From an uncultured Gammaproteobacteria bacterium (GTDB taxonomy: Bacteria > Patescibacteriota > Patescibacteriia > Magasanikbacterales > JBBTXJ01), in the NCBI GenBank assembly GCA_964610305.1, contig CAZSVL010000001.1:108781-172780 (forward strand): a stretch of 64,000 bases of DNA, written 5' to 3'. The notes below the pieces were generated by a model. That model was given only the letters and a program-made list of their open reading frames with translations, was not told the DNA's origin and ran no database searches. Shown here piece after piece: positions 18,338-59,780 of this stretch. Position 1 is the first letter of the stretch, and every line of letters begins with the position of its first letter. Made by a program: the position numbers and the translations under genes.

Positions 18338-18401
18338 TAAGTAGTAATTCTTAAATAGTGCTTAAAAATGGCTAAATTAAGCTATTTTTTTAGTTTATGA
18401 C

Positions 18402-18430
18402 TTGACAAAATGGGCAAAATGTGCTATAGT
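18402..18430 (+). promoter_or_regulatory. sigma70 promoter TTGACA-17-TATAGT with TGTGC extension
   Basis: ttgaca 18402-18407, 17-nt spacer, tatagt 18425-18430 preceded by tgtgc. Confidence 0.65.
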
Positions 18431-18517: not shown

Positions 18518-19570
18518 GTGACCACTAACCTTCGTGAAGAGTTTGACGCCCTCACGGGTACCGATGAAATGAGCGTTGAGGGTGCACTGGAGCACCTTCG
18601 CACTCAGGTGCGGGAAGAGGCCTGCGTTTTTGACGCTCCGGCCATGCTAGAGCAGCTTGACATGATCGCTTTGGTGGAGGAGGGGACTATTGTTCCGGCC
18701 GAGCTGGAGCTTGAAGTCTGCGAGCCTTCTTTGGACGAGCTGGTGGAAGCTGCTCTGGACCGAGAGGATCCAGAAGTGGACCGCGAGCTGGTAGAGAGTC
18801 TGCTCGGAGAGGATGATGGCTTTGAGGGCGGAGCGGTCTTCTATGCCCAGGACATGGCAGACGCTGGCTGGGAGCTCTCTGATCTGGATCACCTTCGTGG
18901 TCTGGAGGCGCTCTCTGACTCTCCGGAGCTAGAAGCGCTTGACGTGGACTACTGGGATCGGATGGACGTCTTGGACGCCCAGGAGAGGGCCCGACGCGCC
19001 AAGGCGTGGAAGTCCTTTTCAACCGACCCGGAGCCCCGCTTGCGTAGGCTGACGGTCATTTCCACTACCGTAGCTCGTGAGGAAGAGACGTACGTGGACA
19101 TCACCGTCTCTGACGGCGAGCACGCGGTGGCCACTTCTGAGCATTCGGTCTACATTCATCAGGATGTCCGTGGTGTTGCTGTGGTGAAGGCCACGGCTTG
19201 GGACATCTCTGACGATCAGATCGTTTACATCAGCGGCTGGGATGCCGTCTTGCGGGGAATCGCTCGTACGGGTATCTTCTTTGCGGTGCACATGGAGCAG
19301 ATCATCAGTCGCGCAAAGCCTAGCGCCTCTAGTGACCCTGCGATCGGCAAGATCGTGGTGGCCAAGGTCGTCAAGCACCTGCGCTCCGGCGTTTTGGTGC
19401 GAAACGAGCACGGTCAGAAGGGTCTGATCGGTGTGGAGACGATCAAGGGAGTTGGCTCAGCAGCCAACGCCATGTCGTTCCTTCGCTCCAAGTGTCCTGT
19501 GGGTCGTGAAGTGACCGTAGAGATCGTGGCTCGCCGCGATCAGGGCGATTTCGTCCTGAAGCTCTCCTAG
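18518..19570 (+). CDS. hypothetical acidic protein with C-terminal S1/OB-like domain; GC-anomalous gene
   Basis: 350-aa ORF with GTG start; about 58-60% GC against about 45% in flanking genes; no stop for 350 codons is highly non-random at this GC; D/E/L-rich N-terminal half; C-terminus GKIVVAKVVKHLRSGVLV...GLIGVETIKG...VTVEIVARRDQGDFVLKLS resembles an S1 domain. Confidence 0.6.
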   Translation: MTTNLREEFDALTGTDEMSVEGALEHLRTQVREEACVFDAPAMLEQLDMIALVEEGTIVPAELELEVCEPSLDELVEAALDREDPEVDRELVESLLGEDDGFEGGAVFYAQDMADAGWELSDLDHLRGLEALSDSPELEALDVDYWDRMDVLDAQERARRAKAWKSFSTDPEPRLRRLTVISTTVAREEETYVDITVSDGEHAVATSEHSVYIHQDVRGVAVVKATAWDISDDQIVYISGWDAVLRGIARTGIFFAVHMEQIISRAKPSASSDPAIGKIVVAKVVKHLRSGVLVRNEHGQKGLIGVETIKGVGSAANAMSFLRSKCPVGREVTVEIVARRDQGDFVLKLS

Positions 19571-19669: not shown

Positions 19670-19870
19670 CTCACCATGAGGGAGGACATGTGAGGCTACG
19701 CTTAGAATTCTGGCGACACAGACAGGTTTTGCTAAGCCGACAAATTGGCGAGCCTGAGGTAAGGCGTAGGGGAGTTAGGCCAAGGATTGTATATCTGCGG
19801 CGCATGAGTATGAGAAGAATTGGACGTAGGTAAAGTCAAGTCAGGCTAAGTAGGCAAGCCTGACTTTTTT
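19670..19870 (+). ncRNA. candidate small RNA (about 200 nt, promoter-to-terminator, no ORF)
   Basis: bounded by the promoter-like element above and a perfect 8-bp hairpin gtcaggct (19840-19847) / agcctgac (19857-19864) plus T6 (19865-19870); GC-rich; contains only tiny ORFs. Confidence 0.4.
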
Positions 19871-20840
19871 AATCTGCCTTTTTGAGAGGATGAAAGTCTG
19901 TATGTGTCTTTTCTGCAAAGCGGTCAGATGCATGCACGTAACGCGTTGTGGTATCTAGAGATTCGTGGCCTAAAAGCACCTGAATGGCGGCCGGGTTCGC
20001 TCCGGATTCTGCCAAGTACGTAGCAAAACCATGTCTGAGGGTGTGCGCAGAGATGGGTACATTAATACCAAGAAGCTCTCGGTATTTTTTTATTTTTGAC
20101 TGAAGATAGTTAGGCGATATTCTTCGCTTTTTACTGCCATCTTTTGATCCTGAGCCGCGGTACGGAATAAAAACTGCCGGTGCTTCATCATCTCTGAGTT
20201 TTAGATATGCTTGCAGGTGTCTATACGCACGTGGCGTTAAATACACAAATCTCTCTTTTCGGCCTTTGCCTTTTATAAAAATGCGACCAGAGGAGTCAAT
20301 TTGATCTCGGTTAAGGTTCAGCAACTCTGAAATGCGCATGCCAGTGGAGAAGAGTACTTCAAGCATGGCACGGTTACGCTGGGCGAGGAGGGGATTTTTC
20401 TCAAGCTCTGATGGGGACTCAATAAGCGCCACAAGTTCATTGAGCTCACCAACGCGCGCATGTTTCTTATCGGTTTTAACTAATCTAATGGCACCCGCAG
20501 CAAGAGGGTAGGGGAGGTCCATTTCTACCAAATATTTGAGGTAGGCGCGCAGTGAGCTCAAGTGGCGGTTAACAGAGAACGGTGTAAGCTTTTGCTTTGA
20601 TTTTGATTTTGTTGGGGTAACTCTGTCGGTAGAGTAGAGGTAGGCCTTGTATTGCTCAATGACCTTTTTATCAATGCTTTTAAACGCAAGGCCATGCTCT
20701 GTCATAAAGTGTGAAAAGACCAGCAAGTCTCGCTCGTAATTATAAAGCGTTTCTTTGGAATAGTTATTAGTTTGCAGTGACAATAAGAAGTCATCTAAGT
20801 GATGAAGAGATTGGTTACCTGTGGATAACTTTTTGCTCAT
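19869..20840 (-). CDS. xerC: tyrosine recombinase XerC/XerD family
   Basis: C-terminal catalytic region ...HTLRHGFATYLAESGANPAAIQVLLGHESLDTTTRYVH (R..H..R..Y tetrad context); N-terminal core-binding domain. Confidence 0.9.
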   Translation of the reverse strand: MSKKLSTGNQSLHHLDDFLLSLQTNNYSKETLYNYERDLLVFSHFMTEHGLAFKSIDKKVIEQYKAYLYSTDRVTPTKSKSKQKLTPFSVNRHLSSLRAYLKYLVEMDLPYPLAAGAIRLVKTDKKHARVGELNELVALIESPSELEKNPLLAQRNRAMLEVLFSTGMRISELLNLNRDQIDSSGRIFIKGKGRKERFVYLTPRAYRHLQAYLKLRDDEAPAVFIPYRGSGSKDGSKKRRISPNYLQSKIKKYRELLGINVPISAHTLRHGFATYLAESGANPAAIQVLLGHESLDTTTRYVHASDRFAEKTHTDFHPLKKAD

Positions 20841-26211: not shown

Positions 26212-26379
26212 GCTGTAGGCTGTAGGCTTTATGCTGTATGCCCTTTTAGCGTCATGCTGAATTTAATTCAGCATCCAGTTAGGAAACTAAGACTTACTCA
26301 ATTTTTACCCTAGATTCTGAATCAAGTTCAGGATGACATGTCGATACCTTACAGTATAAAGCCTACAGCCTACAGCATC
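26212..26379. repeat. composite palindromic element: 29-31-nt outer inverted repeats flanking an 87-nt GTCATGCTGAA...TTCAGGATGAC hairpin unit (MITE/REP-like)
   Basis: left arm gctgtaggctgtaggctttatgctgtatgcc (26212-26242) is the reverse complement of acagtataaagcctacagcctacagcatc (26351-26379); inner unit 26251-26337 with internal palindromes gctgaatttaattcagc and ctgaatcaagttcag; a related copy lies at 40169-40340. Confidence 0.7.
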
Positions 26380-36260: not shown

Positions 36261-37367
36261 TCAAGAAACAAAGCGTCTTTGGACTCTGTTGCCAAAGCTG
36301 CAGATGACGTCATACGGATGCGTGCCTTTTTTACGCGCCCATTGTGCTACACGCAGCTCATTGTCTAGTAGCACTACTTCATCACCTACCTCAGCCTGTG
36401 GTACATCATCAAGCAGAACCGTTGTGTAATCCATGCTAATGCGTCCTATCATGGGGCATTTTATTCCGTGCACTGTAGCCTGCCCGTTGTTGGTTAGCGC
36501 AAAGGGTATTCCATCTGCATAACCGGCGGCTATGGTGCCTACGGTGCATGGTTTTTGCAGTGTGTACATTTTTCCGTAGCCAATACTGCTTCCCGCGGGC
36601 AGTTTTCTTACGGCAACAAGTTTTGATTTTAGTGTCATGGCCGGAAGCAGATTGTAGGCTCGGTTTCCTTCTATGTCAAAAATGCCGTATAGGTTTATTC
36701 CTGTACGGACTCCGGTAAATGGGTGACTATAGCTCTCCGGGATATTATTTATAGCGTCAGAGCTGCCTATGTGGATATTTTTAAAAGTTATTCCCCTACT
36801 CCTAAGCTTTGACAGAAGATTTGTAAAAGTTTCTATCTGAGAGATGGTAAATTCTCTATCTCCGTAAGCGTGGGGAAAATGAGAATATATGCCGGCTATA
36901 TTTAATTTTGGAAGCGAGCAGATTTCTTCAATTACCGATACAATATGGCCACCCGTCATTCCTAACCTTCCCATGCCAGTGTCTATAAGTAAGTGACAGG
37001 TAGCAGTTTTGCCTTGTTTGCGAGCCTCTAGACTCAAGCGGTATGCTGTGCGGCGATCCCCAATAGGCGCTACAATATCATGTTGTATTACTGCAGGGAT
37101 TTCCTCTTCTAAAAGTGTGCCTACAATATGGGGCTTTAGACCAGCTTTTTTTATCCACAAGGCTTCCCGAAGATCCGCAAGTCCCACCGATGTTGCTCCT
37201 GCATGAGCAAGTGTCTTGGCTATCATTTGGGGCTCACCAAGGCCGTAGGCATTAGCTTTAAGAACTGGCATTACCTCTAGTGGACTTACTTTTTCTTTGA
37301 TTGTCCTAAAATTGTGAGCTATGGCGCTCAGTTTTATTTCTAGCCATACGCGCGCATAATTTTGCAT
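36261..37367 (-). CDS. alr: alanine racemase
   Basis: PLP-lysine motif VLKANAYGLG, GRISMDY and the second catalytic-Tyr region. Confidence 0.9.
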   Translation of the reverse strand: MQNYARVWLEIKLSAIAHNFRTIKEKVSPLEVMPVLKANAYGLGEPQMIAKTLAHAGATSVGLADLREALWIKKAGLKPHIVGTLLEEEIPAVIQHDIVAPIGDRRTAYRLSLEARKQGKTATCHLLIDTGMGRLGMTGGHIVSVIEEICSLPKLNIAGIYSHFPHAYGDREFTISQIETFTNLLSKLRSRGITFKNIHIGSSDAINNIPESYSHPFTGVRTGINLYGIFDIEGNRAYNLLPAMTLKSKLVAVRKLPAGSSIGYGKMYTLQKPCTVGTIAAGYADGIPFALTNNGQATVHGIKCPMIGRISMDYTTVLLDDVPQAEVGDEVVLLDNELRVAQWARKKGTHPYDVICSFGNRVQRRFVS

Positions 37368-37392
37368 AGATTGGATGGTATCACTTTCTACA

Positions 37393-37792
37393 AATAAAAA
37401 AAATGCCCCCGCTGCGTTACAAGAAGGCAGCGAGGGCGGTGTAGGTGCGCGTTTACGCCTTTGTTGGGGATAAGGCTCCCCTTGGCCGTAGTGATTGGGT
37501 GGATCAGGCGCGCTGTGAGCGCATTATCCTCCGCTTTCGCGCTATGAGGAACCCTTTGGGGTGATCAGCCCAGACTAATACCGCAAGGCGGTGTTTTCTC
37601 ATTAGTCCTCAATACCTTTTGATCAGTCTCTCCTTGCCTCTCGGCTTTCCCTATTATATGGGTGCTGGCGTCCCAGCTGTGGTCTATCCCCTGCGTTCGT
37701 TTTTTTTGGCGTTAGGCCTGCAAGTGGAGCTCCCGGGGATAAAAGGAAGCATGCCGCCTGCCTCGCGAAAAGAGCAGCCATGGCTCATTCCG
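37393..37792 (-). ncRNA. candidate structured RNA, unit B (about 400 nt, GC-rich), own promoter and terminator, immediately upstream of alr
   Basis: minus-strand promoter 37800-37828, intrinsic terminator hairpin gcccccgctgc/gcagcgagggc with T-run (plus coordinates 37393-37437), no long ORF, about 57% GC; shares a conserved core with unit A, with compensatory changes. Confidence 0.5.
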
Positions 37793-37799
37793 TTAACAC

Positions 37800-37828
37800 A
37801 GTATAGCACAAAATACGCATTTTGTCAA
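37800..37828 (-). promoter_or_regulatory. minus-strand sigma70 promoter TTGACA-17-TATACT with TGTGC extension
   Basis: the plus-strand motifs tgtcaa (37823-37828) and agtata (37800-37805), 17 nt apart, give TTGACA-N17-TATACT on the minus strand. Confidence 0.6.
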
Positions 37829-37884
37829 GGGGTAGATTGACAAAATACGCTTATTTTAGCCAATTTTAGGGTCTTATTTTGAGT

Positions 37885-38164
37885 AAAAAAAGGACCCCGC
37901 GAGCATCTACCGTTAAGTAGTGCCACGGGGTCGAGGAAGCTATGAGCAGGTTGGGAGCGCCAGGCGCGTTATTCCTCCACAGCATTTTCAGCCGTATTAG
38001 AGGAGTCCCTTTAGGGGGATCAGCCCAGAGCACAGCCACAAAGTGGTGTTTTTCAGTGCTCTCCTTACTCACGATTACGGTCTCTCCTTGTTGCCCCTAA
38101 GAATTTATCGGGGTCGTGGATGGTGGTCCTGCCAGGGCAGACGTTGAATGGTATTAAAGAATCG
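37885..38164 (-). ncRNA. candidate structured RNA, unit A (about 280 nt), paralogue of unit B
   Basis: minus-strand promoter 38171-38199; terminator hairpin gaccccgtg...cgcggggtc plus T-run (plus coordinates 37885-37932); conserved blocks ...GAAAAACACC-hairpin-CUGGGCUGAUC.CCC.AAAGGG...GGAGGAUAAYGCGC-loop-GCGC shared with unit B. Confidence 0.5.
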
Positions 38165-38170
38165 GATTAA

Positions 38171-38199
38171 AGTATAGCAGAAAAAACGTATTTTGTCAA
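38171..38199 (-). promoter_or_regulatory. minus-strand sigma70 promoter TTGACA-17-TATACT with TGC extension
   Basis: plus-strand agtata 38171-38176 and tgtcaa 38194-38199, spacer 17. Confidence 0.6.
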
Positions 38200-38226
38200 G
38201 TGGTCTTTGACACGTGTTCTTTTTTT

Positions 38227-38299
38227 GTCATCCTGAACCGAAGGTGAAGGATCTCCTGCCGCGCGATGGTATGAGATCCTTCACTGCGTTCAGGATGAC
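38227..38299. repeat. MITE/REP-like hairpin element GTCATCCTGAAC...GTTCAGGATGAC
   Basis: 12-nt perfect terminal inverted repeats (38227-38238 and 38288-38299) enclosing a second inverted repeat gtgaaggatctc/gagatccttcac; same termini as the elements at 26251-26337 and 40212-40296. Confidence 0.65.
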
Positions 38300-38351
38300 G
38301 CTTATGGGTTTTGTCAATTAAAAAACCCAGATGGTTAGTCCGGGAGAATTT

Positions 38352-40173: not shown

Positions 40174-40340
40174 TAGGCATCAGGCCTCAGGCATTAGTGA
40201 GGTGTCCACTTGTCATACTGAACTTGATTCAGAAACTATGAAGAAACAAAGTACGTCTTGCTGTTATAGTGGATCCTGAATCAAGTTCAGGATGACGCTA
40301 ACTGGGTACTAGTGCCTACTGCCTGATGCCTAATGCCTAT
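40169..40340. repeat. composite palindromic element filling the atpD-atpC intergenic region (outer inverted repeats plus 85-nt GTCATACTGAAC...GTTCAGGATGAC unit)
   Basis: outer arms ggcattaggcatcaggcctcaggcattag (40169-40197) and ctagtgcctactgcctgatgcctaatgcc (about 40309-40338); inner unit 40212-40296 shares the 21-nt ctgaatcaagttcaggatgac with 26317-26337. Confidence 0.7.
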
Positions 40341-40343
40341 AAC

Positions 40344-41805
<1,462 letters not shown>

Positions 41806-41813
41806 GGTGTTAT

Positions 41814-43406: not shown

Positions 43407-43425
43407 CGAGTGCGGTTTTTTTATT

Positions 43426-43496
43426 GTCATCGCGAGGAGTGAAGCAACGTGGCGATCCCGTCGGGATTGCTTCGCAGTTTCACTGCTCGCAATGAC
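43426..43496. repeat. 71-nt hairpin repeat, copy 2 (GTCATCGCGAGGAGTGAAGC...CACTGCTCGCAATGAC)
   Basis: see 41735-41805; lies between the small ORFs and the atpA stop. Confidence 0.7.
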
Positions 43497-43504
43497 GTCT
43501 TGTT

Positions 43505-45986: not shown

Positions 45987-46118
45987 ATAAGTAACAAGTA
46001 GCAAGTCAATAAGTAACAAGTAGCAAGTAACAAGTAGCAAGTAACAAGTAGCAAGTAACAAACTTGTTAATACGCACACTGCGAAATTGCTACTTGTTCC
46101 TTGTTACTTGCTACTTTC
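45987..46118. repeat. tandem 14-nt repeats (GTAACAAGTAGCAA, about 5 copies) followed by their inverted copy, forming a long imperfect hairpin in the atpE-atpF spacer
   Basis: gtaacaagtagcaa repeated 45991-46060; inverted ttgctacttgttccttgttacttgctac at 46088-46115. Confidence 0.7.
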
Positions 46119-46425: not shown

Positions 46426-46437
46426 ATATTCTTATTA

Positions 46438-46510
46438 AGTAACAAGTAGCAAGGAACAAGTAACAATTTTTCGCGCTTTTTTTGTTACTTGCTGCTTGTT
46501 ACTTGCTGCT
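46438..46510. repeat. second copy of the GTAACAAGTAGCAA-based hairpin (atpB-atpE spacer)
   Basis: gtaacaagtagcaaggaacaagtaac ... gttacttgctgcttgttacttgctgc inverted arms around a T-rich loop. Confidence 0.65.
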
Positions 46511-46514
46511 TAAC

Positions 46515-49957: not shown

Positions 49958-50803
49958 TTAGAGTGAAGCGTCAAATCTAATATTAGTGTACCCTGCATTG
50001 CAGACAGAATCTCTGAGTTCTTCTTGGTATTGATACATGACTATTTTCCCTCCGACGTACAGGTCAGCAGGAATGCTTTTTGCACGAACACTCTTCAAAA
50101 TCAAGTGTTTTCCAATATGTTTTGGCAGCTCAGCTAGAGATGTGATTTTATTATTACTTAAGTCTAAACTCCAATCTACCCGTCTGGGAGCATGTTTTAA
50201 TGAAGTGATTGCGTTGTTTCTTAGCAGTAAGTCTCCTTGGACATGATCTGGCAGACCTTGCAAAGAGCTTATTTTGTTACCCTCAAGGTCTATGCCGGCC
50301 CCTAAATATGTGGGCATGCCTTCAAGTGATTCAATCTTGTTATAACTCACATCAAAATGGCCTGAAACAGATTTTGGGAAACCGACTAAAGAAGTGATAC
50401 CGGATTCAGTAATAACAAGGTCTCCTTCAACAGCAACTAAATTGGGAGGCAATTCAGTTACTCCTGCATCTAAAAAATGAAGACTTTGTTTTGCGTGTAC
50501 ACCATCTGTTTTGAATTCAAACGTATCTTCTATCCACTCTGCGGGGTTTTCCTTGCCCAGACCAAATTTTACGGCCCATTGTATGTATGTTTCTCTTAAG
50601 ATCTTTATTCTCTCTTTTGCCTCTAGGAATTGCGTCATCTCATTTGCCGCGTCCAAACCAGTTGGAATAGTAGTCTTTTTTTCTGCGAGAGTCATCCTCC
50701 GCATCATCTCCCCTACTTTAGGATCATCAAAAACAGAAGAGAGCGCTTCCTCTGTGGAAAGCTTCTTGTCTCTTCCTTTTTTAAACGGGTTGGTGGGGTT
50801 CAT
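49958..50803 (-). CDS. leucine-rich-repeat protein with conserved basic N-terminal module (paralogue 1)
   Basis: C-terminal LxxLxLxxNxIxSL-type repeats (LEGNKISSLQGLP..., LSNNKITSLAELP...); N-terminal 37 aa nearly identical to the ORF at 53640-54290. Confidence 0.6.
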   Translation of the reverse strand: MNPTNPFKKGRDKKLSTEEALSSVFDDPKVGEMMRRMTLAEKKTTIPTGLDAANEMTQFLEAKERIKILRETYIQWAVKFGLGKENPAEWIEDTFEFKTDGVHAKQSLHFLDAGVTELPPNLVAVEGDLVITESGITSLVGFPKSVSGHFDVSYNKIESLEGMPTYLGAGIDLEGNKISSLQGLPDHVQGDLLLRNNAITSLKHAPRRVDWSLDLSNNKITSLAELPKHIGKHLILKSVRAKSIPADLYVGGKIVMYQYQEELRDSVCNAGYTNIRFDASL

Positions 50804-53639: not shown

Positions 53640-54290
53640 CTATCCTAGCGTATATCCAACGACTTGTATAGATTGCCTTAGAGCGGTGTTGTCTTCTGAC
53701 GTATAAACCTTGCCGCCGATAGATAACCCTGCGGGGATACTGCTAACCGATAGGTCGGAAAGGTATAAATTGCCGCCAATTTCCACGGGCAGGTCTTCTA
53801 GAGAAGTAATATTCTGACAATTTACAAGATACAGGTGGTATTCAATATGTCTGGGCAGGGCGTCTAATTTTGAGATAAGTGTTCTGGAGAGATCTAGGCT
53901 GCCCCCTAGAGCATTGAATTTTGGAGGGAATTTTGGATCATCGCCTTCACGAAATATCAAGCCAGCATTAAGCGTTACTCCTGAGGAATCAATGTGTATT
54001 CTATCTTCTAGCCACCTCTTAGGATCTAGTTTTCCAAAGCCAAATTTTGTCACAAACCGCAGGTATAATTCTTTTAGCTCTTGCTTATTACCTTCTTTCT
54101 CGTACTTAGATATCTCTTCTGATATTGCCTCAGAGATGCCAAACGGTTGACTAGTGGTCAGCTTGTTGTCCGTGGTTGTCATCCGCCTCATCATCTCCCC
54201 TACTTTAGGATCATCAAAAACAGAAGAGAGGGCGTCTTCTGCTGAGACTTTTTTTGGTCTACCTTTTTTGAAGGGATTTGTTGCGCGCAT
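53640..54290 (-). CDS. leucine-rich-repeat protein with conserved basic N-terminal module (paralogue 2)
   Basis: N-terminus MRATNPFKKGRPKKVSAEDALSSVFDDPKVGEMMRRMT matches paralogue 1; the DNA is about 50 nt near-identical (about 54180-54235 vs 50690-50745); LRR-like C-terminus. Confidence 0.6.
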   Translation of the reverse strand: MRATNPFKKGRPKKVSAEDALSSVFDDPKVGEMMRRMTTTDNKLTTSQPFGISEAISEEISKYEKEGNKQELKELYLRFVTKFGFGKLDPKRWLEDRIHIDSSGVTLNAGLIFREGDDPKFPPKFNALGGSLDLSRTLISKLDALPRHIEYHLYLVNCQNITSLEDLPVEIGGNLYLSDLSVSSIPAGLSIGGKVYTSEDNTALRQSIQVVGYTLG

Positions 54291-54952: not shown

Positions 54953-54975
54953 TTTTGCAGTTGCGGTGCCTTTTT

Positions 54976-55020
54976 CTTGAGATCCCGGATATTTTGCTAC
55001 GCAAAATTCCGGGATGACAG
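54976..55020. repeat. partial GAGATCCCGGAT...TTCCGGGATGACAG hairpin element
   Basis: shares both arms with the elements at 56486-56615. Confidence 0.6.
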
Positions 55021-55050
55021 GGGGTAGTTTTAGAATGACATGGGTATGAT

Positions 55051-55338
55051 CTACTCCTCTGGCCAGATTTGATTGCCCTTTGCGTCATAAACAATGATAG
55101 CGTTGGTGGGGCAGCTTTGGGCTGCAAGCAGGAGTGTCTCGTCGTCATGAGCATCTGGGTCAACCAAAAAAGCTAGATTTTCATCGTCTAGTTGGAAGGT
55201 TCCCGGCGCTACGGCAATACAAGAGGCCGCACCTATGCAGGCATCTCTATCTATTACCACCTTTCTATATTCCTTATCCTCAGAGCGTGTGCCCGTTTCA
55301 ATATCTCCCTCCCTTTCTACATTTTTTTGTTCAGACAT
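55051..55338 (-). CDS. ferredoxin (single Cys-cluster, 3Fe-4S/4Fe-4S type)
   Basis: CIGAASC...CP cluster-binding motif in a 95-aa acidic protein. Confidence 0.8.
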   Translation of the reverse strand: MSEQKNVEREGDIETGTRSEDKEYRKVVIDRDACIGAASCIAVAPGTFQLDDENLAFLVDPDAHDDETLLLAAQSCPTNAIIVYDAKGNQIWPEE

Positions 55339-55443
55339 AGTGCCATTTTAGCATTGTAGTATAAAAAGAGCCACAGCAGCTTTTTTCATTTTTTTTGGTT
55401 TCTGAAATGTGGCTAATTTAAGCCAATTTTGTCAAGTTACCTC

Positions 55444-55472
55444 TTGACAAAATTGACAAAGTGTGCTATACT
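55444..55472 (+). promoter_or_regulatory. sigma70 promoter TTGACA-17-TATACT with TGTGC extension; 38-nt sequence duplicated at 57377-57414
   Basis: ttgaca 55444-55449, spacer 17, tatact 55467-55472; ctcttgacaaaattgacaaagtgtgctatactgctttt is identical at both sites. Confidence 0.65.
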
Positions 55473-55479
55473 GCTTTTG

Positions 55480-56162
55480 TTGCGTTAAGACAGTTCTGCG
55501 CCCACTTCTGTTTCTGTCTTTTGGGTAGTACGGAGCTTGTGCCGAAAAAGGCCCTTAGCGTAACGCTCTTTTTGAAAAGTGTTGGTTTTCCTGCCAGCGC
55601 GCAATGGAGGATGTAGTATGTCTGAAAGGCCCGATCTGCCGCCCGCCTTGTGGAGGCCCGCAGTATTGGAGTCCGTCAGGCCCAGGATCTCAATGGTGAT
55701 TGAGTGAACGGAGCACGGTTGTGGCTAGCGCCTGGCGCTAGGGTTGCTTGCCTCCACAAGCAGCACTTTCCATGTCTGTGGGAGGTTCAACTAGCTAGAA
55801 AGCTTGCAGGAATTCACCGTTTTCTGTGTATGGCCGGCATACTTGCTGACGCGGGGTGCGAGAGATCGCAGCCGAACCAAACCGCTCAGTTAGCGTGGCC
55901 ACGTAGTGGTCGGCTTGTAAAGCTTGTGAGGAGCTACTGATCCTCTGTGGTGATCCCATGGAGGAGCCCACAAGCTGGTATCCTATGAGAGGCTGAAGTG
56001 ATGCAGACCTCTACTCGCCTAACAGTGAGAGCCTTTGCAAGGGCCAGTACGACGCTCCCGCGGGGAGAGTACGTGCAAGGATATTACACAGAAACGTCAC
56101 AAGCGTGGTACTGCGCAGGTTCCACGTGGCCCTCGTCGACAACCGTTGACGAGGGCTTTTTT
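55480..56162 (+). ncRNA. candidate long GC-rich noncoding transcript (about 680 nt), promoter to terminator, no long ORF
   Basis: starts about 8 nt after the -10; ends at hairpin gccctcgtcgac/gttgacgagggc (56129-56156) plus T6; about 57% GC; long-range helix gccttgtggaggc (55645-55657) / gcctccacaagc (55750-55761); contains a 29-codon ORF with perfect SD at 55618-55707. Confidence 0.4.
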
Positions 56163-56164
56163 AA

Positions 56165-56746
56165 TTATAGTCCTAAAAAAAGATCGTCTCCCAATTCTAA
56201 ATCTTCAAATTCCCCTTTTGTGTAATCCCCTTCTGGGAGTTTGCGCGCCGCTTCTACTTTTGAAGCTGCCTCCGGGGGGATGACCTCTGAGATTATGTTT
56301 CCGTTAACGGCTATATTGTTTGCTACTTCACAATAGCCCAGGCAGCCTCTGTATTGCAGAGAGACTTCCTCACTTTCTTGCCCTTCTTTGATTCCAAAGT
56401 GATTTTCTAGCTCTTGCATAATATAGCGCGCATGCTTGGGGCCGCAGGTTTTGGAATCGCAGACTTCAATTCGATCTACCTTTTTGTCATCCCGGACTAG
56501 ATCCGGGATCTCAAGTGATGCGTCTACCGACGATTTTTTACTTGAGATCCCGGATAATTCACTATGTGAATTTCCGGGATGACAGGTGGAGGGTTGTGAA
56601 TTTCCGGGATGACAGATTGGTTTGTTTTGTCCGCATGTGCAGTTTTCGCATTTTGACGGGATCCCTCGGCTCTCCTGCGGATCGCTCGGGGTGACGGGTG
56701 GGTTACCCATAGTATTTTTCGCTATAAAATCTAATGAGTTGCTCAA
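56165..56746 (-). CDS. thioredoxin-like [2Fe-2S] ferredoxin (NuoE-like); N-terminal region of uncertain reality
   Basis: C-terminal CDSKTCG ... GCLGYCE (C-x4-C ... C-x3-C); the N-terminal about 90 codons translate the CCGGGATGACAG repeat elements and overlap the upstream NifU gene by 44 nt, so the true start is probably internal. Confidence 0.65.
   Translation of the reverse strand: MSNSLDFIAKNTMGNPPVTPSDPQESRGIPSKCENCTCGQNKPICHPGNSQPSTCHPGNSHSELSGISSKKSSVDASLEIPDLVRDDKKVDRIEVCDSKTCGPKHARYIMQELENHFGIKEGQESEEVSLQYRGCLGYCEVANNIAVNGNIISEVIPPEAASKVEAARKLPEGDYTKGEFEDLELGDDLFLGL
56486..56615. repeat. GTCATCCCGGAC...TTCCGGGATGACAG hairpin element with tandemly duplicated right end, embedded in the 5' part of the 2Fe-2S ferredoxin ORF
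   Basis: termini gtcatcccgga (56486-56496) and tccgggatgac (56573-56583); inner inverted repeat ccgggatctcaagt/acttgagatcccgg; second copy of gtgaatttccgggatgacag at 56596-56615. Confidence 0.65.
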
Positions 56747-57362
56747 TTTCCGGAATGCTCTCTGGCGAGCCCACTCCTACTTTTAGTTTTTTTTGTACCT
56801 CTTCTATGGTTTGAGCCCCTTCAAGCACTGCTTCTTCTATATCTTTGTCTGTAATATTTAAAACGGGATCAATTATTTTTGCCGCAACCACTTTTATTCT
56901 GTCATGTTGGCCAGTGTTTCTAAAATATTGATTGATGGCTTTTCTGAAGGCCTTGTCTACCAAAACACTGCAGTGGATTTTTCTGTTTGGTAGTCCTCCT
57001 AGGCGTTCCATTATGTGTTGAGGTTTTACGTTTAGTGCTTCCTCTATAAGCATTCCACCGTTTTCTGTGATCATAACAGAGAACATGCTGGTGGCAGCAA
57101 TGGCAGATCCGCATCCAAAGGTTTTCCATTTCAATTCAGTAATGTTTTCAGTGTCTGAAACGTTAATCCATACATCCATAACGTCTCCGCACGCAGGTGA
57201 TCCTACGGTGCCGCGTGCATCAAAGCTGTTTTCATCAGGTTCTTCTAGGAGTAAATTCTTTGGATTAAAAAAATGGTCTTTTACGATGTCTGAATATACC
57301 CAGGATTCTCCTGTGTGATCATTGACTACGTCTTTCCCCTTTTTTTGTGTAATTTTAGCCAT
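56703..57362 (-). CDS. NifU/IscU-type Fe-S cluster scaffold protein with C-terminal extra domain
   Basis: GSPACGD, FGCGSAIA and HCS cluster-ligand motifs; likely start MAKITQ (cat 57360-57362); ORF-track start 57395 overlaps the divergent promoter. Confidence 0.85.
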   Translation of the reverse strand: MAKITQKKGKDVVNDHTGESWVYSDIVKDHFFNPKNLLLEEPDENSFDARGTVGSPACGDVMDVWINVSDTENITELKWKTFGCGSAIAATSMFSVMITENGGMLIEEALNVKPQHIMERLGGLPNRKIHCSVLVDKAFRKAINQYFRNTGQHDRIKVVAAKIIDPVLNITDKDIEEAVLEGAQTIEEVQKKLKVGVGSPESIPEIEQLIRFYSEKYYG

Positions 57363-57379
57363 TTTTGTGTGTTTAGCTC

Positions 57380-57408
57380 TTGACAAAATTGACAAAGTGT
57401 GCTATACT
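57380..57408 (+). promoter_or_regulatory. second copy of the TTGACA-17-TATACT (TGTGC) promoter
   Basis: ttgaca 57380-57385, tatact 57403-57408; fires into the iscU-iscS intergenic region; T7 at 57521-57527 after a structured 100-nt segment. Confidence 0.6.
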
Positions 57409-57741
57409 GCTTTTAGATGGTAATGCTGGTGCTGGATGAGGGATGCGATGTGTTGCAAAGGCCTTGTGACATGTTGTAGACCGCTTGAGTTCAGGCCGAC
57501 ACCAGTCGGAAATTAAGGCGTTTTTTTCTCGAAGCCAGCGGAATATGCGCAGTTATGTATTGCCAAAGGATACGGCTCCTGAGGGCGGGCGGCGCGTACT
57601 GCTTCAAAAACATTACCATCTAACCTCTCTTCTTCACCCTGCAGCTTGCGTCTTTGACGTGGCGGCTGTAGCCTCTGCCTAAGGGCACGACTGTAACAGT
57701 CGTTGGTGAAAACAGACACACCGGTCTGAAGAGGGGATTTT

Positions 57742-59049
57742 TTATTTCATCCAATGCGGCTTTCCTTCCCCGACAAATGCCTTTTGCATGGTCGGTTTTT
57801 TGTTATCCTCTGTTGGTTTGCCCGCATCATCCAGCTTAAGATTCACCGGAGAGATATCGCGCAGTCTCTGAACAATCTCTGGCAGCAAATTCAGTACATA
57901 ATCTAAGTCTTCTTTTGTGGTGCTTCTTCCTAGCGTAAATCTCATACTTCCGTGTGCGTATTCGTATGGTTTTCCGATAGCAAGAATAACATGTGACGGA
58001 TCTAAAGACTCAGACGTGCAGGCGCTTCCGGTAGACATGGCTATTCCGTACTCATCAAGGTACAACAAGAGTGCCTCGCCTTCAATATCTAAAATACTGA
58101 CGTTTACATTGTTGGGCAAACGCTCTGTCACGTGTCCATTGATTACTATTTTTGGAATTCTCTTTATTATTTCCTGAGTAAAGTAATCGCGAAGTTTTGT
58201 TAGTCTTTCAGATTCGCTTTGTGCATCAGCTCGTACAATTTCTACGGCTTTTGCGAGTCCCACAATGCCAGCAACATTTTCCGTACCAGCACGCATACGC
58301 ATTTCTTGTCCTCCGCCGTGGATGAGTGGCTTTATTTTTACGTGATCAGCTTTATACAAAACACCAACTCCCTTTGGGCCGTAAATTTTGCTTCCGTTAA
58401 AGGTAAGTAAGTCTGCATGTAATTTTTTTACATCAATGTCTAGGTAATTTATTGCTTGGCATGCATCGGTATGGAGATAGGGAGCCTTGTTGGGCTTTAT
58501 ATCATTATCTTTTTTCCATCGCAGGAGAGCCCTGCCGATATCGGCAATAGGATTAATGCTGCCTATTTCATTATTGGCGTACATGACGGAGATTAAAATA
58601 GTATCATCTTTGAGCGCAGCAATAACATCCTTTGGACTTACCATTCCAAATTCGTCAGTATCCAAATACGTAACCTCAAAGCCTTCTTTCTCTAGCGCCT
58701 GGCAGCTGTGCAGCACGGCGTGATGTTCAACTTTGGTGGTTATAATGTGACCGCTCCCCTGCTTTTTGGCAACGCCATAGATGGCCATATTGTCACTCTC
58801 TGTTCCAGAGCCGGTGAAAATTATATTACGTGGATTTGCTCCCAGTGCCTGTGATACGGTTTTGCGCGCCCGATCCACAGCGAGTTTTCCGTTTCTTGCT
58901 TTTTTATACAAGCCTCCCGGATTTCCAAATTCCTCTTTTAAAAAGGGTGTCATAATTTCAAAAACCGCTTGCTCAAGCGGTGTTGCTGCGGCGTGATCAA
59001 GGTATACCCGCCGTCTATTCTCTACTTTTGGAAATGGTTTAAAATCCAT
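57742..59049 (-). CDS. iscS: cysteine desulfurase (IscS/NifS class V aminotransferase) with C-terminal extension
   Basis: PLP-lysine context ...FNGSKIYGPKGVGVL... and catalytic-Cys loop STGSACTSESLDPSHV. Confidence 0.95.
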   Translation of the reverse strand: MDFKPFPKVENRRRVYLDHAAATPLEQAVFEIMTPFLKEEFGNPGGLYKKARNGKLAVDRARKTVSQALGANPRNIIFTGSGTESDNMAIYGVAKKQGSGHIITTKVEHHAVLHSCQALEKEGFEVTYLDTDEFGMVSPKDVIAALKDDTILISVMYANNEIGSINPIADIGRALLRWKKDNDIKPNKAPYLHTDACQAINYLDIDVKKLHADLLTFNGSKIYGPKGVGVLYKADHVKIKPLIHGGGQEMRMRAGTENVAGIVGLAKAVEIVRADAQSESERLTKLRDYFTQEIIKRIPKIVINGHVTERLPNNVNVSILDIEGEALLLYLDEYGIAMSTGSACTSESLDPSHVILAIGKPYEYAHGSMRFTLGRSTTKEDLDYVLNLLPEIVQRLRDISPVNLKLDDAGKPTEDNKKPTMQKAFVGEGKPHWMK

Positions 59050-59096: not shown

Positions 59097-59780
59097 ATGT
59101 CAACCCCAAAAAAATACAATTCTACCCTTGTTGAGCGCGAATGGCTAACAGATGATATTCTTTTGGTTACGCTGGAACTTGAGAGCTCCATGGATTATGT
59201 AGCCGGGCAATTTGTTATGCTTGATATTCCATCAGACAAGCGTCCACGAGCGTTTTCTATAGTCAACCCGCCTGCTGATGGAGATGAGAAAAAGGTGGTG
59301 CTCTGTATTAAGGAATACGAAAAGAGTGTAACGGCGCCTTACCTTGAAAGTCTTGATGTTGGAGCGCCTGTGAATTTTAAGGGGCCTTTTGGTAGCTTTG
59401 TTGTTGATAAGGGAGATCGTCCTCTCTATTTTGTGGCAACCGGTGTTGGAATAGCGCCTATTTTAGCTCAACTAGAGCAACTAAAAGCAGATGGCGACAA
59501 GCGAAAAAGGGATTTGATATTTGGTGTTCGGCATTATGAAGATACCATTTTTTACGACGCACTTCTTACTAAAACAGGTAATTGCACCGTGTGTGTTAGT
59601 CAGCCGGATGAGGAGTGGGACGGACCCTCTGGCAGAGTGACGGATATTTTAAAAGAGCAAAGGGATTTGCATGAGTATGATTTTTATCTGTGTGGAAATC
59701 CGGAGATGATTAAAGATGTAAAAGCCTTGCTGAAAGAGCGCGGGGTGCCGGACAAGAGCGTCCACTTTGAAATATTTTAA
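59097..59780 (+). CDS. ferredoxin-NADP+ reductase-like FAD/NAD(P)-binding oxidoreductase
   Basis: RAFSIVN (FAD-binding RxYS-like), GTGVGIAPI NAD(P)-binding glycine motif, YLCGNPEMI C-terminal motif. Confidence 0.8.
   Translation: MSTPKKYNSTLVEREWLTDDILLVTLELESSMDYVAGQFVMLDIPSDKRPRAFSIVNPPADGDEKKVVLCIKEYEKSVTAPYLESLDVGAPVNFKGPFGSFVVDKGDRPLYFVATGVGIAPILAQLEQLKADGDKRKRDLIFGVRHYEDTIFYDALLTKTGNCTVCVSQPDEEWDGPSGRVTDILKEQRDLHEYDFYLCGNPEMIKDVKALLKERGVPDKSVHFEIF

What the first reader, a model, noticed from the sequence alone, without database searches (positions are those of the whole stretch)
55441..57414. Verbatim 38-nt promoter duplication bracketing the ferredoxin/NifU genes, both copies pointing away from the adjacent coding genes
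ctcttgacaaaattgacaaagtgtgctatactgctttt occurs identically at 55441-55478 and 57377-57414. Each copy carries a consensus -35, a 17-nt spacer and a TGTGC-extended TATACT -10 on the plus strand. The adjacent protein genes (ferredoxin, 2Fe-2S ferredoxin, NifU, iscS) are all on the minus strand. The first copy drives the about 680-nt noncoding unit. The second fires into the 346-nt iscU-iscS spacer, where a structured about 110-nt segment ends in T7 (57521-57527), a second sRNA candidate. If unterminated, this transcript would be antisense to the 3' end of iscS. Exact duplication of a 38-nt regulatory element within 2 kb implies recent duplication or strong selective constraint. It may also mark divergent promoter pairs controlling Fe-S cluster genes.
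Basis: seen in the sequence. Interest (0 to 1): 0.55.

Follow-up and report, generated by a model that had tools for sequence, protein, structure and literature searches.

The report
Shared promoter driving two noncoding RNAs
The repeated 38 bases are the core of a strong bacterial promoter that was recently copied within this Patescibacteria genome, and its two copies most likely drive two unrelated, previously undescribed structured noncoding RNAs lying backwards inside the iron-sulfur cluster gene row.

Summary
The 38-mer occurs exactly twice, at 55441-55478 and 57377-57414. It has TTGACA, a 17-nt spacer, TGC and TATACT, and points away from the minus-strand genes.

Similarity covers about 70 nt and stops at the predicted start sites, G55479 and A57415. 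Each RNA begins there with an 11-bp helix.

Copy 2 drives a roughly 330-nt RNA (R330, 57415-57745) that fills the iscS-nifU spacer. It is not a 110-nt sRNA: the T7 run is not conserved. R330 and its promoter recur in two related genomes. Between the window and the closest relative, 89 pairs are all kept, 16 of them through double changes. G-U pairs favour the plus strand.

Copy 1 drives a 685-nt GC-rich noncoding unit (R680). It is an approximately 800-bp insertion absent from the closest relative.

Neither RNA matches any Rfam family. Orthologous promoters differ at 6 of 17 spacer positions, whereas the two copies here are identical. That indicates recent copying or gene conversion within a family of at least four promoter modules in this window.

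I found no mobile-element signature and no divergent promoter pair. RNA function is unknown, and transcription is inferred, not shown.

The parts
55361..56164 (+). Lineage-specific insertion of about 800 bp: left spacer, promoter module P1, R680 and its terminator. It lies between the ferredoxin promoter and the stop codon of the 2Fe-2S ferredoxin gene.
   Evidence: In the closest relative, L082, the two genes are 36 nt apart. Homology with the window runs to about 55360 on the left and resumes at the stop codon at 56165.
55409..55440 (+). Upstream half of promoter module P1. It is A/T-rich and contains the near-palindrome TGGCTAATTTAAGCC (55410-55424).
   Evidence: 69% identical to the P2 upstream region and 77% to that of the R37 promoter, by my count on the 35 nt printed upstream of each -35 box (alignment A2). 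The motif is found only at the four module promoters.
55441..55478 (+). 38-mer copy 1, the core promoter P1 from -38 to -1. The -35 TTGACA is at 55444-55449, TGC at 55464-55466 and the -10 TATACT at 55467-55472.
55479..56163 (+). R680, a 685-nt GC-rich noncoding transcription unit with predicted start at G55479. Its 5' helix pairs 55479-55489 with 55555-55565.
   Evidence: GC is 54-57% against a background of about 44%. GC is flat across codon positions at 0.54-0.57 in all three frames. ORF fragments have no Pfam hit and there is no Rfam hit. The + strand MFE is -279 kcal/mol (z -3.5) against -237 (z -2.1) for the - strand.
56128..56163 (+). Intrinsic terminator of R680: a 13-bp stem with 8 GC pairs, a 4-nt loop and T6. 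It abuts the stop codon of the convergent 2Fe-2S ferredoxin gene.
57345..57376 (+). Upstream half of promoter module P2. It overlaps the first codons of nifU on the - strand (ATG at 57360-57362).
57377..57414 (+). 38-mer copy 2, the core promoter P2. The -35 box is at 57380-57385 and the -10 box at 57403-57408.
   Evidence: The orthologous promoter is conserved in L082 (499->471) and L200 (11682->11654) with a different spacer.
57415..57745 (+). R330, a structured ncRNA of about 330 nt that fills the iscS-nifU spacer. Domain 1 is closed by the helix 57415-57425 / 57611-57621. Domain 2 is closed by 57624-57632 / 57728-57736, followed by the U-run 57738-57743, which overlaps the iscS stop codon (57742-57744).
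   Evidence: The + strand MFE is -130 kcal/mol (z -4.4) against -93 (z -0.9) for the - strand. The RNA is conserved in L082 and L200. All 89 pairs are kept, 16 through double changes, against at most 2 in slid controls.
57521..57527 (+). It may act as a weak, genome-specific attenuator but is not the conserved end of the RNA.
   Evidence: It is preceded by an irregular stem, CGCUU...AAGGCG. It is absent in L082 and L200 and is not listed by the terminator scan.
37800..37863 (-). Third member of the promoter-module family, in front of ncRNA candidate R37 (37392-37798, - strand).
18367..18430 (+). Fourth member of the promoter-module family, in front of a GC-rich orphan ORF (18518-19570).

Best explanation
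The 38-mer is the core, positions -38 to -1, of a strong housekeeping-type (sigma-70) promoter. It carries a perfect -35 box, a 17-nt spacer, an extended -10 (TGC TATACT) and an A/T-rich upstream region.

It belongs to a family of at least four promoter modules of about 65-70 nt in this Patescibacteria (Candidatus Magasanikbacteria-like) genome. The two identical copies start two unrelated noncoding RNA genes on the + strand.

P2 and R330 are ancestral to a small clade. R330 is about 330 nt (57415-57745). Its structure is conserved and its terminator abuts the iscS stop codon.

P1 and R680 (685 nt, 55479-56163) are an insertion of about 800 bp specific to this lineage.

The perfect identity of the two cores arose recently, by copying or gene conversion between paralogous promoter modules. 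The identical tract ends exactly where homology ends, at the transcription start.

My preferred reading of function is that both RNAs are independent, stable, structured RNAs whose position in the Fe-S gene row is incidental, because these gene junctions are permissive landing sites.

Shown here: the sequence features, the conservation and compensatory changes of R330, and the absence of R680 in the closest relative. Inferred: transcription itself, the start and end points, the conversion mechanism and any function of the RNAs.
For: Promoter anatomy.

A generic consensus cannot explain the identity:
- The -35 and -10 blocks recur with unrelated spacers at 68 viral loci and at other promoters in the window.
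- The orthologous P2 in L082 and L200 differs from the window at 6 of 17 spacer positions each.
- P1 and P2 are identical at every unconstrained position.

Similarity is limited to about 70 nt and stops at -1. Each RNA begins at +1 with an 11-bp helix.

R330:
- It is present with its promoter in L082 (NifU 87%) and L200 (IscS 81%).
- On window plus L082, all 89 predicted pairs are kept in both sequences, 16 through double changes, against 0-2 in slid controls.
- The closing helix covaries in all three genomes.
- Many G-U pairs, together with a consensus energy of -107.9 against -71.7 kcal/mol, favour the + strand.
- A covariance model of domain 2 finds exactly these three copies in 930 kb.

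R680:
- It has a strong terminator, a GC island and no codon periodicity.
- It has no Pfam or Rfam match, and the + strand folds better.
- It is absent in L082, where the flanking genes are 36 nt apart.

Permissive junction:
- Most of the 76 related loci in which both iscS and nifU were found have an iscS-nifU gap below 140 nt.
- Several others carry unrelated antisense small genes there, in three of them (L010, L027, L076) with a promoter-like site next to nifU.
- L200 carries what looks like an IS200/IS605-type transposase end at the R680 site. That identification is my recognition of the C-terminal sequence and was not tested.
Against: There is no transcript data of any kind.

R680 is a single sequence with no homolog, so its RNA nature rests on composition, folding and flanking signals only.

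R330 covariation rests on three genomes. The structure was predicted from the same sequences it was counted on, and the alignment of the third genome is imperfect.

Gene conversion is inferred from the pattern of identity. A one-off duplication that fused a copy of P2 to R680 fits equally well.

The rest of the genome could not be searched for further copies.

A strong convergent promoter between iscS and nifU, with no recognisable nifU promoter, is hard to regard as neutral for operon expression.
Confidence: 0.62

Rival explanations
1. The two RNAs are cis-acting antisense regulators of the Fe-S cluster genes. Strong convergent transcription from P2, and from P1, collides with RNA polymerase reading from iscS into nifU and from the 2Fe-2S gene onward. 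In addition, R330 pairs perfectly with the 380-nt intercistronic part of the operon mRNA. Together these would uncouple or tune nifU expression, possibly replacing the IscR-type repressor.
For: - R330 fills the whole iscS-nifU spacer in antisense orientation in all three genomes that have it.
- No minus-strand promoter for nifU is detectable in the spacer. The only good promoter is upstream of iscS (59103->59075), so read-through across antisense R330 is likely.
- Relatives without R330 have an Rrf2 (IscR-like) gene in front of iscS. The window and L200 instead have an oppositely oriented FNR-like gene.
- Known precedents are RyhB-induced discoordinate decay of iscRSUA (PMC12533949 and its reference 23) and the intra-operonic antisense sRNA scr4677 (PMC3896431).
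Against: - Pure antisense action needs no conserved fold, yet R330 keeps an elaborate structure through compensatory changes. It also keeps sequence stretches identical between the window and L082, such as the 23-nt GGCGGCGCGTACTGCTTCAAAAA.
- The ferredoxin downstream of R680 has its own conserved extended -10 element, so R680 sits between two transcription units rather than inside one.
- Unrelated antisense protein genes occupy the same junction in other Patescibacteria, which suggests a permissive site rather than a dedicated regulatory design.
- The loss of Rrf2 and gain of R330 is a single evolutionary event, and Rrf2 may be encoded elsewhere in the genome.
Confidence: 0.2
2. The promoter-RNA-terminator units are remnants or members of a mobile or foreign element. 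In that case the shared promoter is the hallmark of that element rather than of host RNA genes.
For: - R680 is an insertion.
- Module promoters sit in front of GC-rich, lineage-specific sequences. These include an orphan ORF with GC3 of 0.68 against 0.35-0.41 in five ordinary genes of the window.
- The equivalent site in L200 holds what looks like an IS200/IS605-type transposase end. L203 has palindromic repeat elements downstream of iscS.
- Such palindromic elements are abundant around the locus.
Against: - There are no terminal inverted repeats or target-site duplication at the R680 borders.
- Similarity between the two loci is confined to about 70 nt of promoter.
- R680 and R330 share nothing with each other or with the rest of the window.
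- There are no matches in phage, plasmid or viral collections or in 203 fetched loci.
- R330 is stably syntenic in three genomes.
Confidence: 0.1
3. The identity is due to chance, to convergent selection on an optimal promoter, or to an assembly artefact.
For: About 21 of the 38 positions belong to generic consensus blocks that recur widely.
Against: - Seventeen unconstrained positions are also identical, while orthologs differ at 6 of 17 spacer positions.
- No shuffle produced a match.
- An independent unitig breaks exactly k-1 bases into each copy and carries R680 contiguous with the 2Fe-2S gene.
- Gene order agrees with L082 and L200.
Confidence: 0.03

Closest known systems
Multi-copy strong promoters of stable-RNA genes, such as rRNA operon P1 promoters with UP elements kept near-identical by gene conversion (from my own knowledge)
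   Same: A near-consensus -35 and -10 with an A/T-rich upstream region. Several near-identical copies in one genome. They drive structured, untranslated RNAs.
   Different: The downstream RNAs here are not rRNA or tRNA and are not homologous to one another. Only the promoter is shared, and identity stops exactly at +1.
Paralogous sRNA genes with duplicated promoters, such as PrrF1/PrrF2 or OmrA/OmrB (from my own knowledge)
   Same: Neighbouring noncoding RNA genes that each have their own copy of the same promoter.
   Different: In those cases the RNAs themselves are paralogs. Here R680 and R330 share no detectable similarity. The R37/R38 pair at 37.4-38.2 kb in this window fits that pattern better.
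Intra-operonic antisense sRNAs and sRNA control of isc operons: scr4677 in Streptomyces (PMC3896431) and RyhB acting on iscRSUA (PMC12533949)
   Same: An RNA gene in antisense orientation in the spacer between two co-oriented genes, next to the start of the downstream gene. The operon is an Fe-S cluster assembly operon.
   Different: R330 is much larger, at about 330 nt. It fills the entire spacer and has a conserved multi-domain fold. No regulation or interaction has been shown. RyhB acts in trans.
Large structured bacterial ncRNAs of unknown function, such as OLE, ROOL, GOLLD and raiA (Rfam families)
   Same: Length of 300-700 nt, higher GC than the genome, own promoter and terminator, and extensive predicted structure.
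   Different: There is no match to any of the 4227 Rfam models, even at E <= 10. Distribution is very narrow: three genomes for R330 and one for R680.

Membership tests
Sigma-70-type promoter with extended -10 | -35 hexamer close to TTGACA, a 16-18-nt spacer, and a -10 hexamer close to TATAAT with A at position 2 and T at position 6 | tested here: met
   TTGACA, a 17-nt spacer and TATACT give 11 of 12 matches at both copies.
Sigma-70-type promoter with extended -10 | TGn immediately upstream of the -10 hexamer | tested here: met
   TGC at 55464-55466 and 57400-57402.
Sigma-70-type promoter with extended -10 | Hexamers conserved in orthologs while the spacer drifts | tested here: met
   L082 has TTGACAAATTCTGCAATATGTGCTATACT and L200 has TTGACAAAATTTTGAGTTTGTGCTATAGT.
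Sigma-70-type promoter with extended -10 | Transcription initiates about 7 nt downstream of the -10 hexamer | not testable with these tools
   Indirect evidence only: both RNAs begin an 11-bp helix at the 7th base after the -10 hexamer.
Structured noncoding RNA (R330) | Secondary structure maintained by compensatory substitutions | tested here: met
   89 pairs are 100% kept, 16 through double changes, against 0-2 in slid controls. The closing helix covaries in three genomes. Caveat: only three sequences, and the structure was predicted from the same sequences it was counted on.
Structured noncoding RNA (R330) | No conserved reading frame | tested here: met
   The alignment contains indels of 1 to 16 nt, most of them not multiples of three. 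The longest ORFs give no significant Pfam hit (one match at E 0.15, far below the curated cut-off).
Structured noncoding RNA (R680) | Conservation or covariation in homologs | tested here: inconclusive
   No homolog was found in 203 loci or in the phage, plasmid and viral collections. Only single-sequence evidence is available.
Any curated RNA family (Rfam 15: RNase P, tmRNA, 6S, SRP, OLE, ROOL, GOLLD, HEARO, group I/II introns, riboswitches) | Score at or above the family gathering threshold | tested here: not met
   There were 0 hits in the whole window at the gathering threshold. At E <= 10, 55300-57800 gave only chance hits to miRNA, snoRNA and similar families. ARAGORN found no tRNA or tmRNA.
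Intrinsic terminator at the 3' end of each unit | GC-rich stem followed directly by a U-run | tested here: met
   R680: a 13-bp stem plus T6. R330: the helix CCUCUCUUC / GAAGAGGGG plus U6 is conserved in three genomes. It is atypical because that helix closes a multi-hairpin domain.
Mobile element (IS, MITE or cassette) | Terminal inverted repeats, target-site duplication, and several copies of the whole unit | tested here: not met
   The borders compared with the empty site in L082 show no such features. The repeat is limited to about 70 nt. There are no other copies.
cis-antisense RNA | Overlap with a transcript from the opposite strand | tested here: inconclusive
   Overlap with annotated coding sequence is at most about 4 nt, at the iscS stop codon. 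Overlap with an iscS-nifU read-through mRNA is plausible because no nifU promoter was found, but it is not shown.
   No minus-strand promoter-like site lies between 57363 and 57741 or next to P1. The extended -10 element of fer4 is 100 nt away and is conserved in L082, which lacks P1.

The most novel reading that the evidence does not exclude
Self-contained units of strong promoter, structured RNA and terminator are a class of lineage-specific noncoding genes that colonise operon junctions in the reduced genomes of Patescibacteria, each recruiting the same promoter module. In the Fe-S operon one of them, R330, has taken over regulation from the lost IscR-type repressor by antisense or convergent transcription between iscS and nifU.
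Probability: 0.12. Interest if true: 0.7.

Novelty: new member of a known kind. Interest (0 to 1): 0.42.

Why it matters
Patescibacteria have tiny genomes and almost no experimentally studied regulation or noncoding RNA.

This locus yields one candidate RNA family with real comparative support (R330). It also yields three further candidates under the same promoter type (R680, R37, R38). Together they take up about 1.7 kb of a 64-kb window, which is a surprisingly large noncoding investment for a reduced genome.

The promoter module gives a practical handle. Searching related genomes for it should enrich for highly expressed, unannotated RNA genes.

If R330 acts on the iscS-nifU transcript, it would be an example of RNA-based control of Fe-S cluster assembly in a lineage that lacks the usual repressor at this locus.

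Tried and rejected
- **Rfam.** I searched the whole window at the gathering threshold, and 55300-57800 and 37300-38350 at E <= 10. Nothing relevant was found. Ten related loci gave only one tRNA.
- **tRNA and tmRNA scan.** None found.
- **blastn and nhmmer.** I searched R680, R330, R37 and R38 against 80 syntenic loci, 68 viral loci and 45 metagenome loci. The only hits were the window's own unitig and L082.
- **Metagenome scan.** All 45 hits were unrelated chance matches. A longer or different block might have done better.
- **Viral scans.** I searched with the exact promoter, an R330 20-mer and an R680 21-mer and found no matches. Phage and plasmid BLAST also found none.
- **Is R680 a decayed gene?** tblastx against the window found only the shared promoter and short chance-level matches. 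The ORF fragments gave no Pfam hit. There is no codon periodicity. Rejected.
- **Does P1 carry a relic of the nifU start codon?** Rejected. The same upstream motif occurs at two other module promoters that are not next to nifU.
- **Is there a nifU promoter in the 7 nt before the ATG?** The three genomes have TA-starting hexamers there, but all lack the invariant final T. Not claimed.
- **Covariance model of the full R330.** Not attempted because of the size limit. Only domain 2 was modelled.
- **Third homology search.** I used RsmI as the query to look for the ferredoxin side of the L200 genome. It found only L082 and distant relatives.
Full report
**1. The observation**

The 38-mer CTCTTGACAAAATTGACAAAGTGTGCTATACTGCTTTT is present exactly twice, at 55441-55478 and 57377-57414 on the + strand. 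There are no further matches with up to three mismatches, and none in 100 shuffles.

Each copy reads TTGACA, 17 nt, TGC, TATACT. That is 11 of 12 hexamer matches plus the extended -10 TG.

All neighbouring protein genes are on the - strand:
- 4Fe-4S ferredoxin, 55051-55338
- thioredoxin-like 2Fe-2S ferredoxin, 56165-56746
- NifU-type scaffold, 56703-57362
- cysteine desulfurase IscS, 57742-59049

An independent Logan unitig of 1958 bp (L001) is identical to window 55449-57406. It stops 30 nt inside each copy, which is the break expected for a k=31 graph at a true repeat. The duplication is therefore real.

**2. Extent of the repeat**

Similarity runs for about 70 nt. It includes a 65-nt block at 89% identity. 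It falls to background on both sides, at 4-10 matches per 20 nt.

The identical tract ends one base before the predicted transcription starts, the 7th base after the -10 hexamer: G55479 and A57415. From that base the two sequences are unrelated.

Each sequence immediately forms an 11-bp helix:
- 55479-55489 pairs with 55555-55565.
- 57415-57425 pairs with 57611-57621.

**3. Generic consensus versus specific identity**

The blocks CTTGACAAA and GTGCTATACTG are a generic strong-promoter consensus. They recur with unrelated spacers at 68 loci in viral contigs. Looser versions occur at about ten other places in this window.

What is not generic is the identity of the roughly 17 unconstrained positions. 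The orthologous promoter in two related genomes keeps both hexamers but differs from the window at 6 of 17 spacer positions each. The paralogous identity is therefore younger than the split from the closest known relative.

P1 and P2 also share an upstream element, TGGCTAAWWTWAGCY followed by a T-rich tract. Two more promoters in the window carry it: 37863-37800 on the - strand and 18367-18430 on the + strand. There is thus a small family of promoter modules of about 65-70 nt.

P1's upstream half is closer to the module at 37.8 kb (27 of 35 positions) than to P2 (24 of 35). This is my own count on the upstream sequences printed. It argues for homogenisation of the core between pre-existing paralogous modules, or for a fresh copy of the core. 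The conversion tract would be bounded downstream by the end of homology, at +1.

**4. Organism and neighbourhood**

NifU and IscS relatives place the window in Patescibacteria, nearest to Candidatus Magasanikbacteria, at 77% NifU identity to the species representatives.

In most of the 76 related loci where both genes were found, iscS and nifU are adjacent, with a gap below 140 nt. Many of these have an Rrf2 (IscR-like) gene in front of iscS.

**5. What P2 drives**

The closest relative is contig L082 (NifU 87%). It has the same spacer of about 380 nt, with the promoter and a clearly alignable RNA. A third genome, L200-L202 (IscS 81%), has it too. Its sequence has diverged strongly but the architecture is the same.

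The conserved unit runs to 57745. There, the helix 57624-57632 / 57728-57736 plus U6 ends on the iscS stop codon.

Evidence for a conserved structure:
- On window plus L082 the consensus structure has 89 pairs, all kept in both sequences.
- 16 of those pairs are kept through changes on both sides, against 0-2 when partners are slid by 1-3 columns.
- One hairpin stem (alignment columns 28-44 with 54-70) keeps 14 pairs, six of them through changes on both sides, around a conserved loop (AAAGGCC).
- The domain-closing helix covaries in all three genomes.

Evidence for the + strand:
- There are numerous G-U pairs.
- The consensus energy is -107.9 kcal/mol against -71.7 for the - strand.
- The single-sequence z-score is -4.4 against -0.9.

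A covariance model of the 3' domain finds exactly these three copies in 930 kb of related sequence and no paralog in the window.

Closer NifU relatives at 79-81% identity lack the spacer. One genome with IscS at 77% has palindromic repeat elements there instead. R330 is therefore a clade-specific structured RNA with no Rfam counterpart.

**6. What P1 drives**

The stretch 55479-56163 has 54-57% GC against about 44% for the window. GC is flat over codon positions, at 0.54-0.57 in all three frames. Five ordinary protein genes of the window, and the orphan ORF18, show strong periodicity.

It has no ORF with a family match and no Rfam hit. The + strand folds better than the - strand: -279 kcal/mol (z -3.5) against -237 (z -2.1). 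It ends in the strongest terminator of the region, a 13-bp stem with 8 GC pairs plus T6.

In L082 the 2Fe-2S ferredoxin and ferredoxin genes are 36 nt apart. Homology with the window stops near 55360 and resumes at 56165. R680 with its promoter is therefore an insertion of about 800 bp. The borders show no terminal repeats or target duplication.

The ferredoxin gene has an extended -10 element, TGCTAAAAT, 6 nt before its ATG. It is conserved in L082. The insertion therefore lies between two transcription units.

I found no homolog of R680 anywhere I could search. Its status as an RNA gene is well motivated but rests on a single sequence.

**7. Mechanism and rivals**

My preferred reading (probability 0.62) has three parts:
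- Two independent stable-RNA genes are transcribed by the housekeeping polymerase from copies of one promoter module.
- The identity of the cores is due to recent copying or conversion.
- The location is incidental.

The junctions appear to be permissive. Other Patescibacteria carry unrelated antisense small protein genes between iscS and nifU, in three cases with a promoter-like site next to nifU. L200 carries what looks like the end of an IS200/IS605 transposase at the R680 site. That identification is my recognition of the C-terminal sequence and was not tested.

The main rival (0.2) is cis-antisense control or transcriptional interference on the Fe-S operon. In its favour:
- No nifU promoter is detectable.
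- P2 faces the iscS promoter's transcripts.
- The Rrf2 gene is missing next to iscS in exactly the genomes with R330 for which the sequence upstream of iscS is available, the window and L200.
- Precedents exist (PMC3896431, PMC12533949).

Against it stand R330's conserved fold and its sequence blocks identical between the window and L082. Antisense pairing alone does not require either.

The mobile-element reading (0.1) lacks any structural signature. Chance, convergent selection and assembly artefact together (0.03) are effectively excluded.

**8. Novelty and score**

The promoter itself is ordinary in kind. Duplicated strong promoters for stable RNAs are known. What is new is the cargo:
- R330, a comparative-genomics-supported ncRNA family restricted to a few Magasanikbacteria-like genomes.
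- R680, an orphan large ncRNA candidate.

Both lie backwards in the Fe-S assembly gene row of a reduced genome. I rate this a new member of a known kind, with moderate interest (0.42). No function or expression is shown, and the distribution is narrow.

Noticed in passing
window 37392-37798 (-) and 37875-38170 (-): Two tandem, paralogous ncRNA candidates (R37, R38). Each has a consensus promoter (37828->37800 of the module type, and 38199->38171). Each has a terminator-like hairpin followed by a U-run at its 3' end, seen by eye in the sequence. They share a 46-nt block. Neither has an Rfam match. Folding z-scores on the - strand are -1.9 and -3.6.
   Followed up: partly
window 18518-19570 (+): A 350-aa ORF behind a module-type promoter, with GC by codon position of 0.69/0.40/0.68. 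Five ordinary genes of the window have GC3 of 0.35-0.41. It has no Pfam family and only one distant relative among 1.84 billion representative proteins. It is an orphan with foreign-looking composition, next to a tyrosine recombinase (19869-20840).
   Followed up: partly
window 56470-56620; also 54971-55036, 38228-38300, 26313-26337, 40272-40296, 41719-41806, 43410-43497; L203 1545-1575: Palindromic repeat elements bounded by GTCATCC.. / ..GGATGAC. One set is inserted in frame in the 2Fe-2S ferredoxin gene, making it 181 aa against 118 aa in the closest relative. The remaining 108 aa align at 81% identity. This resembles the in-frame Rickettsia palindromic elements (from memory). The same element occurs in another genome.
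   Followed up: partly
window 55339-55353 (-): The ferredoxin gene has an extended -10 element, TGCTAAAAT, exactly 6 nt before its ATG and no Shine-Dalgarno sequence. The same geometry is conserved in L082. This suggests a leaderless mRNA.
   Followed up: no
L200 11697-13496: NifU in this related genome is 591-599 aa and carries a faint LAGLIDADG hit. It is probably an intein-containing scaffold protein.
   Followed up: no
L200 14112-14195: A partial ORF ending ..VDEEIIRRYIQKQGEEDCGQGKLEL, followed by a terminator. It looks like the C-terminus of an IS200/IS605 TnpA (recognised from memory, not tested). It lies at the site equivalent to R680, and two assemblies break there.
   Followed up: no
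L010, L027, L046, L076, L078 (iscS-nifU gaps): In several other Patescibacteria the iscS-nifU junction holds an unrelated small protein gene of 70-156 aa in antisense orientation. In L010, L027 and L076 a consensus-like promoter lies next to nifU. The junction is a recurrent landing site.
   Followed up: partly
window 59097-59780 (+); L204 5981-6382; L005 4220-4636: Relatives have an Rrf2 (IscR-like) gene directly upstream of iscS. The window and L200 instead have an oppositely oriented FAD/NAD-binding oxidoreductase and no Rrf2 at the locus.
   Followed up: partly
window 45989-46061, 46087-46116, 46437-46466, 46482-46511: Arrays of a 7-nt unit, (AAGTAAC)n, and their inverted copies, arranged as nested inverted repeats over about 520 bp. 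They partly overlap predicted ORFs.
   Followed up: no
window 50675-50803 and 54162-54290: A 129-nt direct repeat at 77% identity, at the 5' ends of two - strand ORFs (49958-50803 and 53640-54290). The second ORF lies between rsmI and metRS and has no Pfam family.
   Followed up: no
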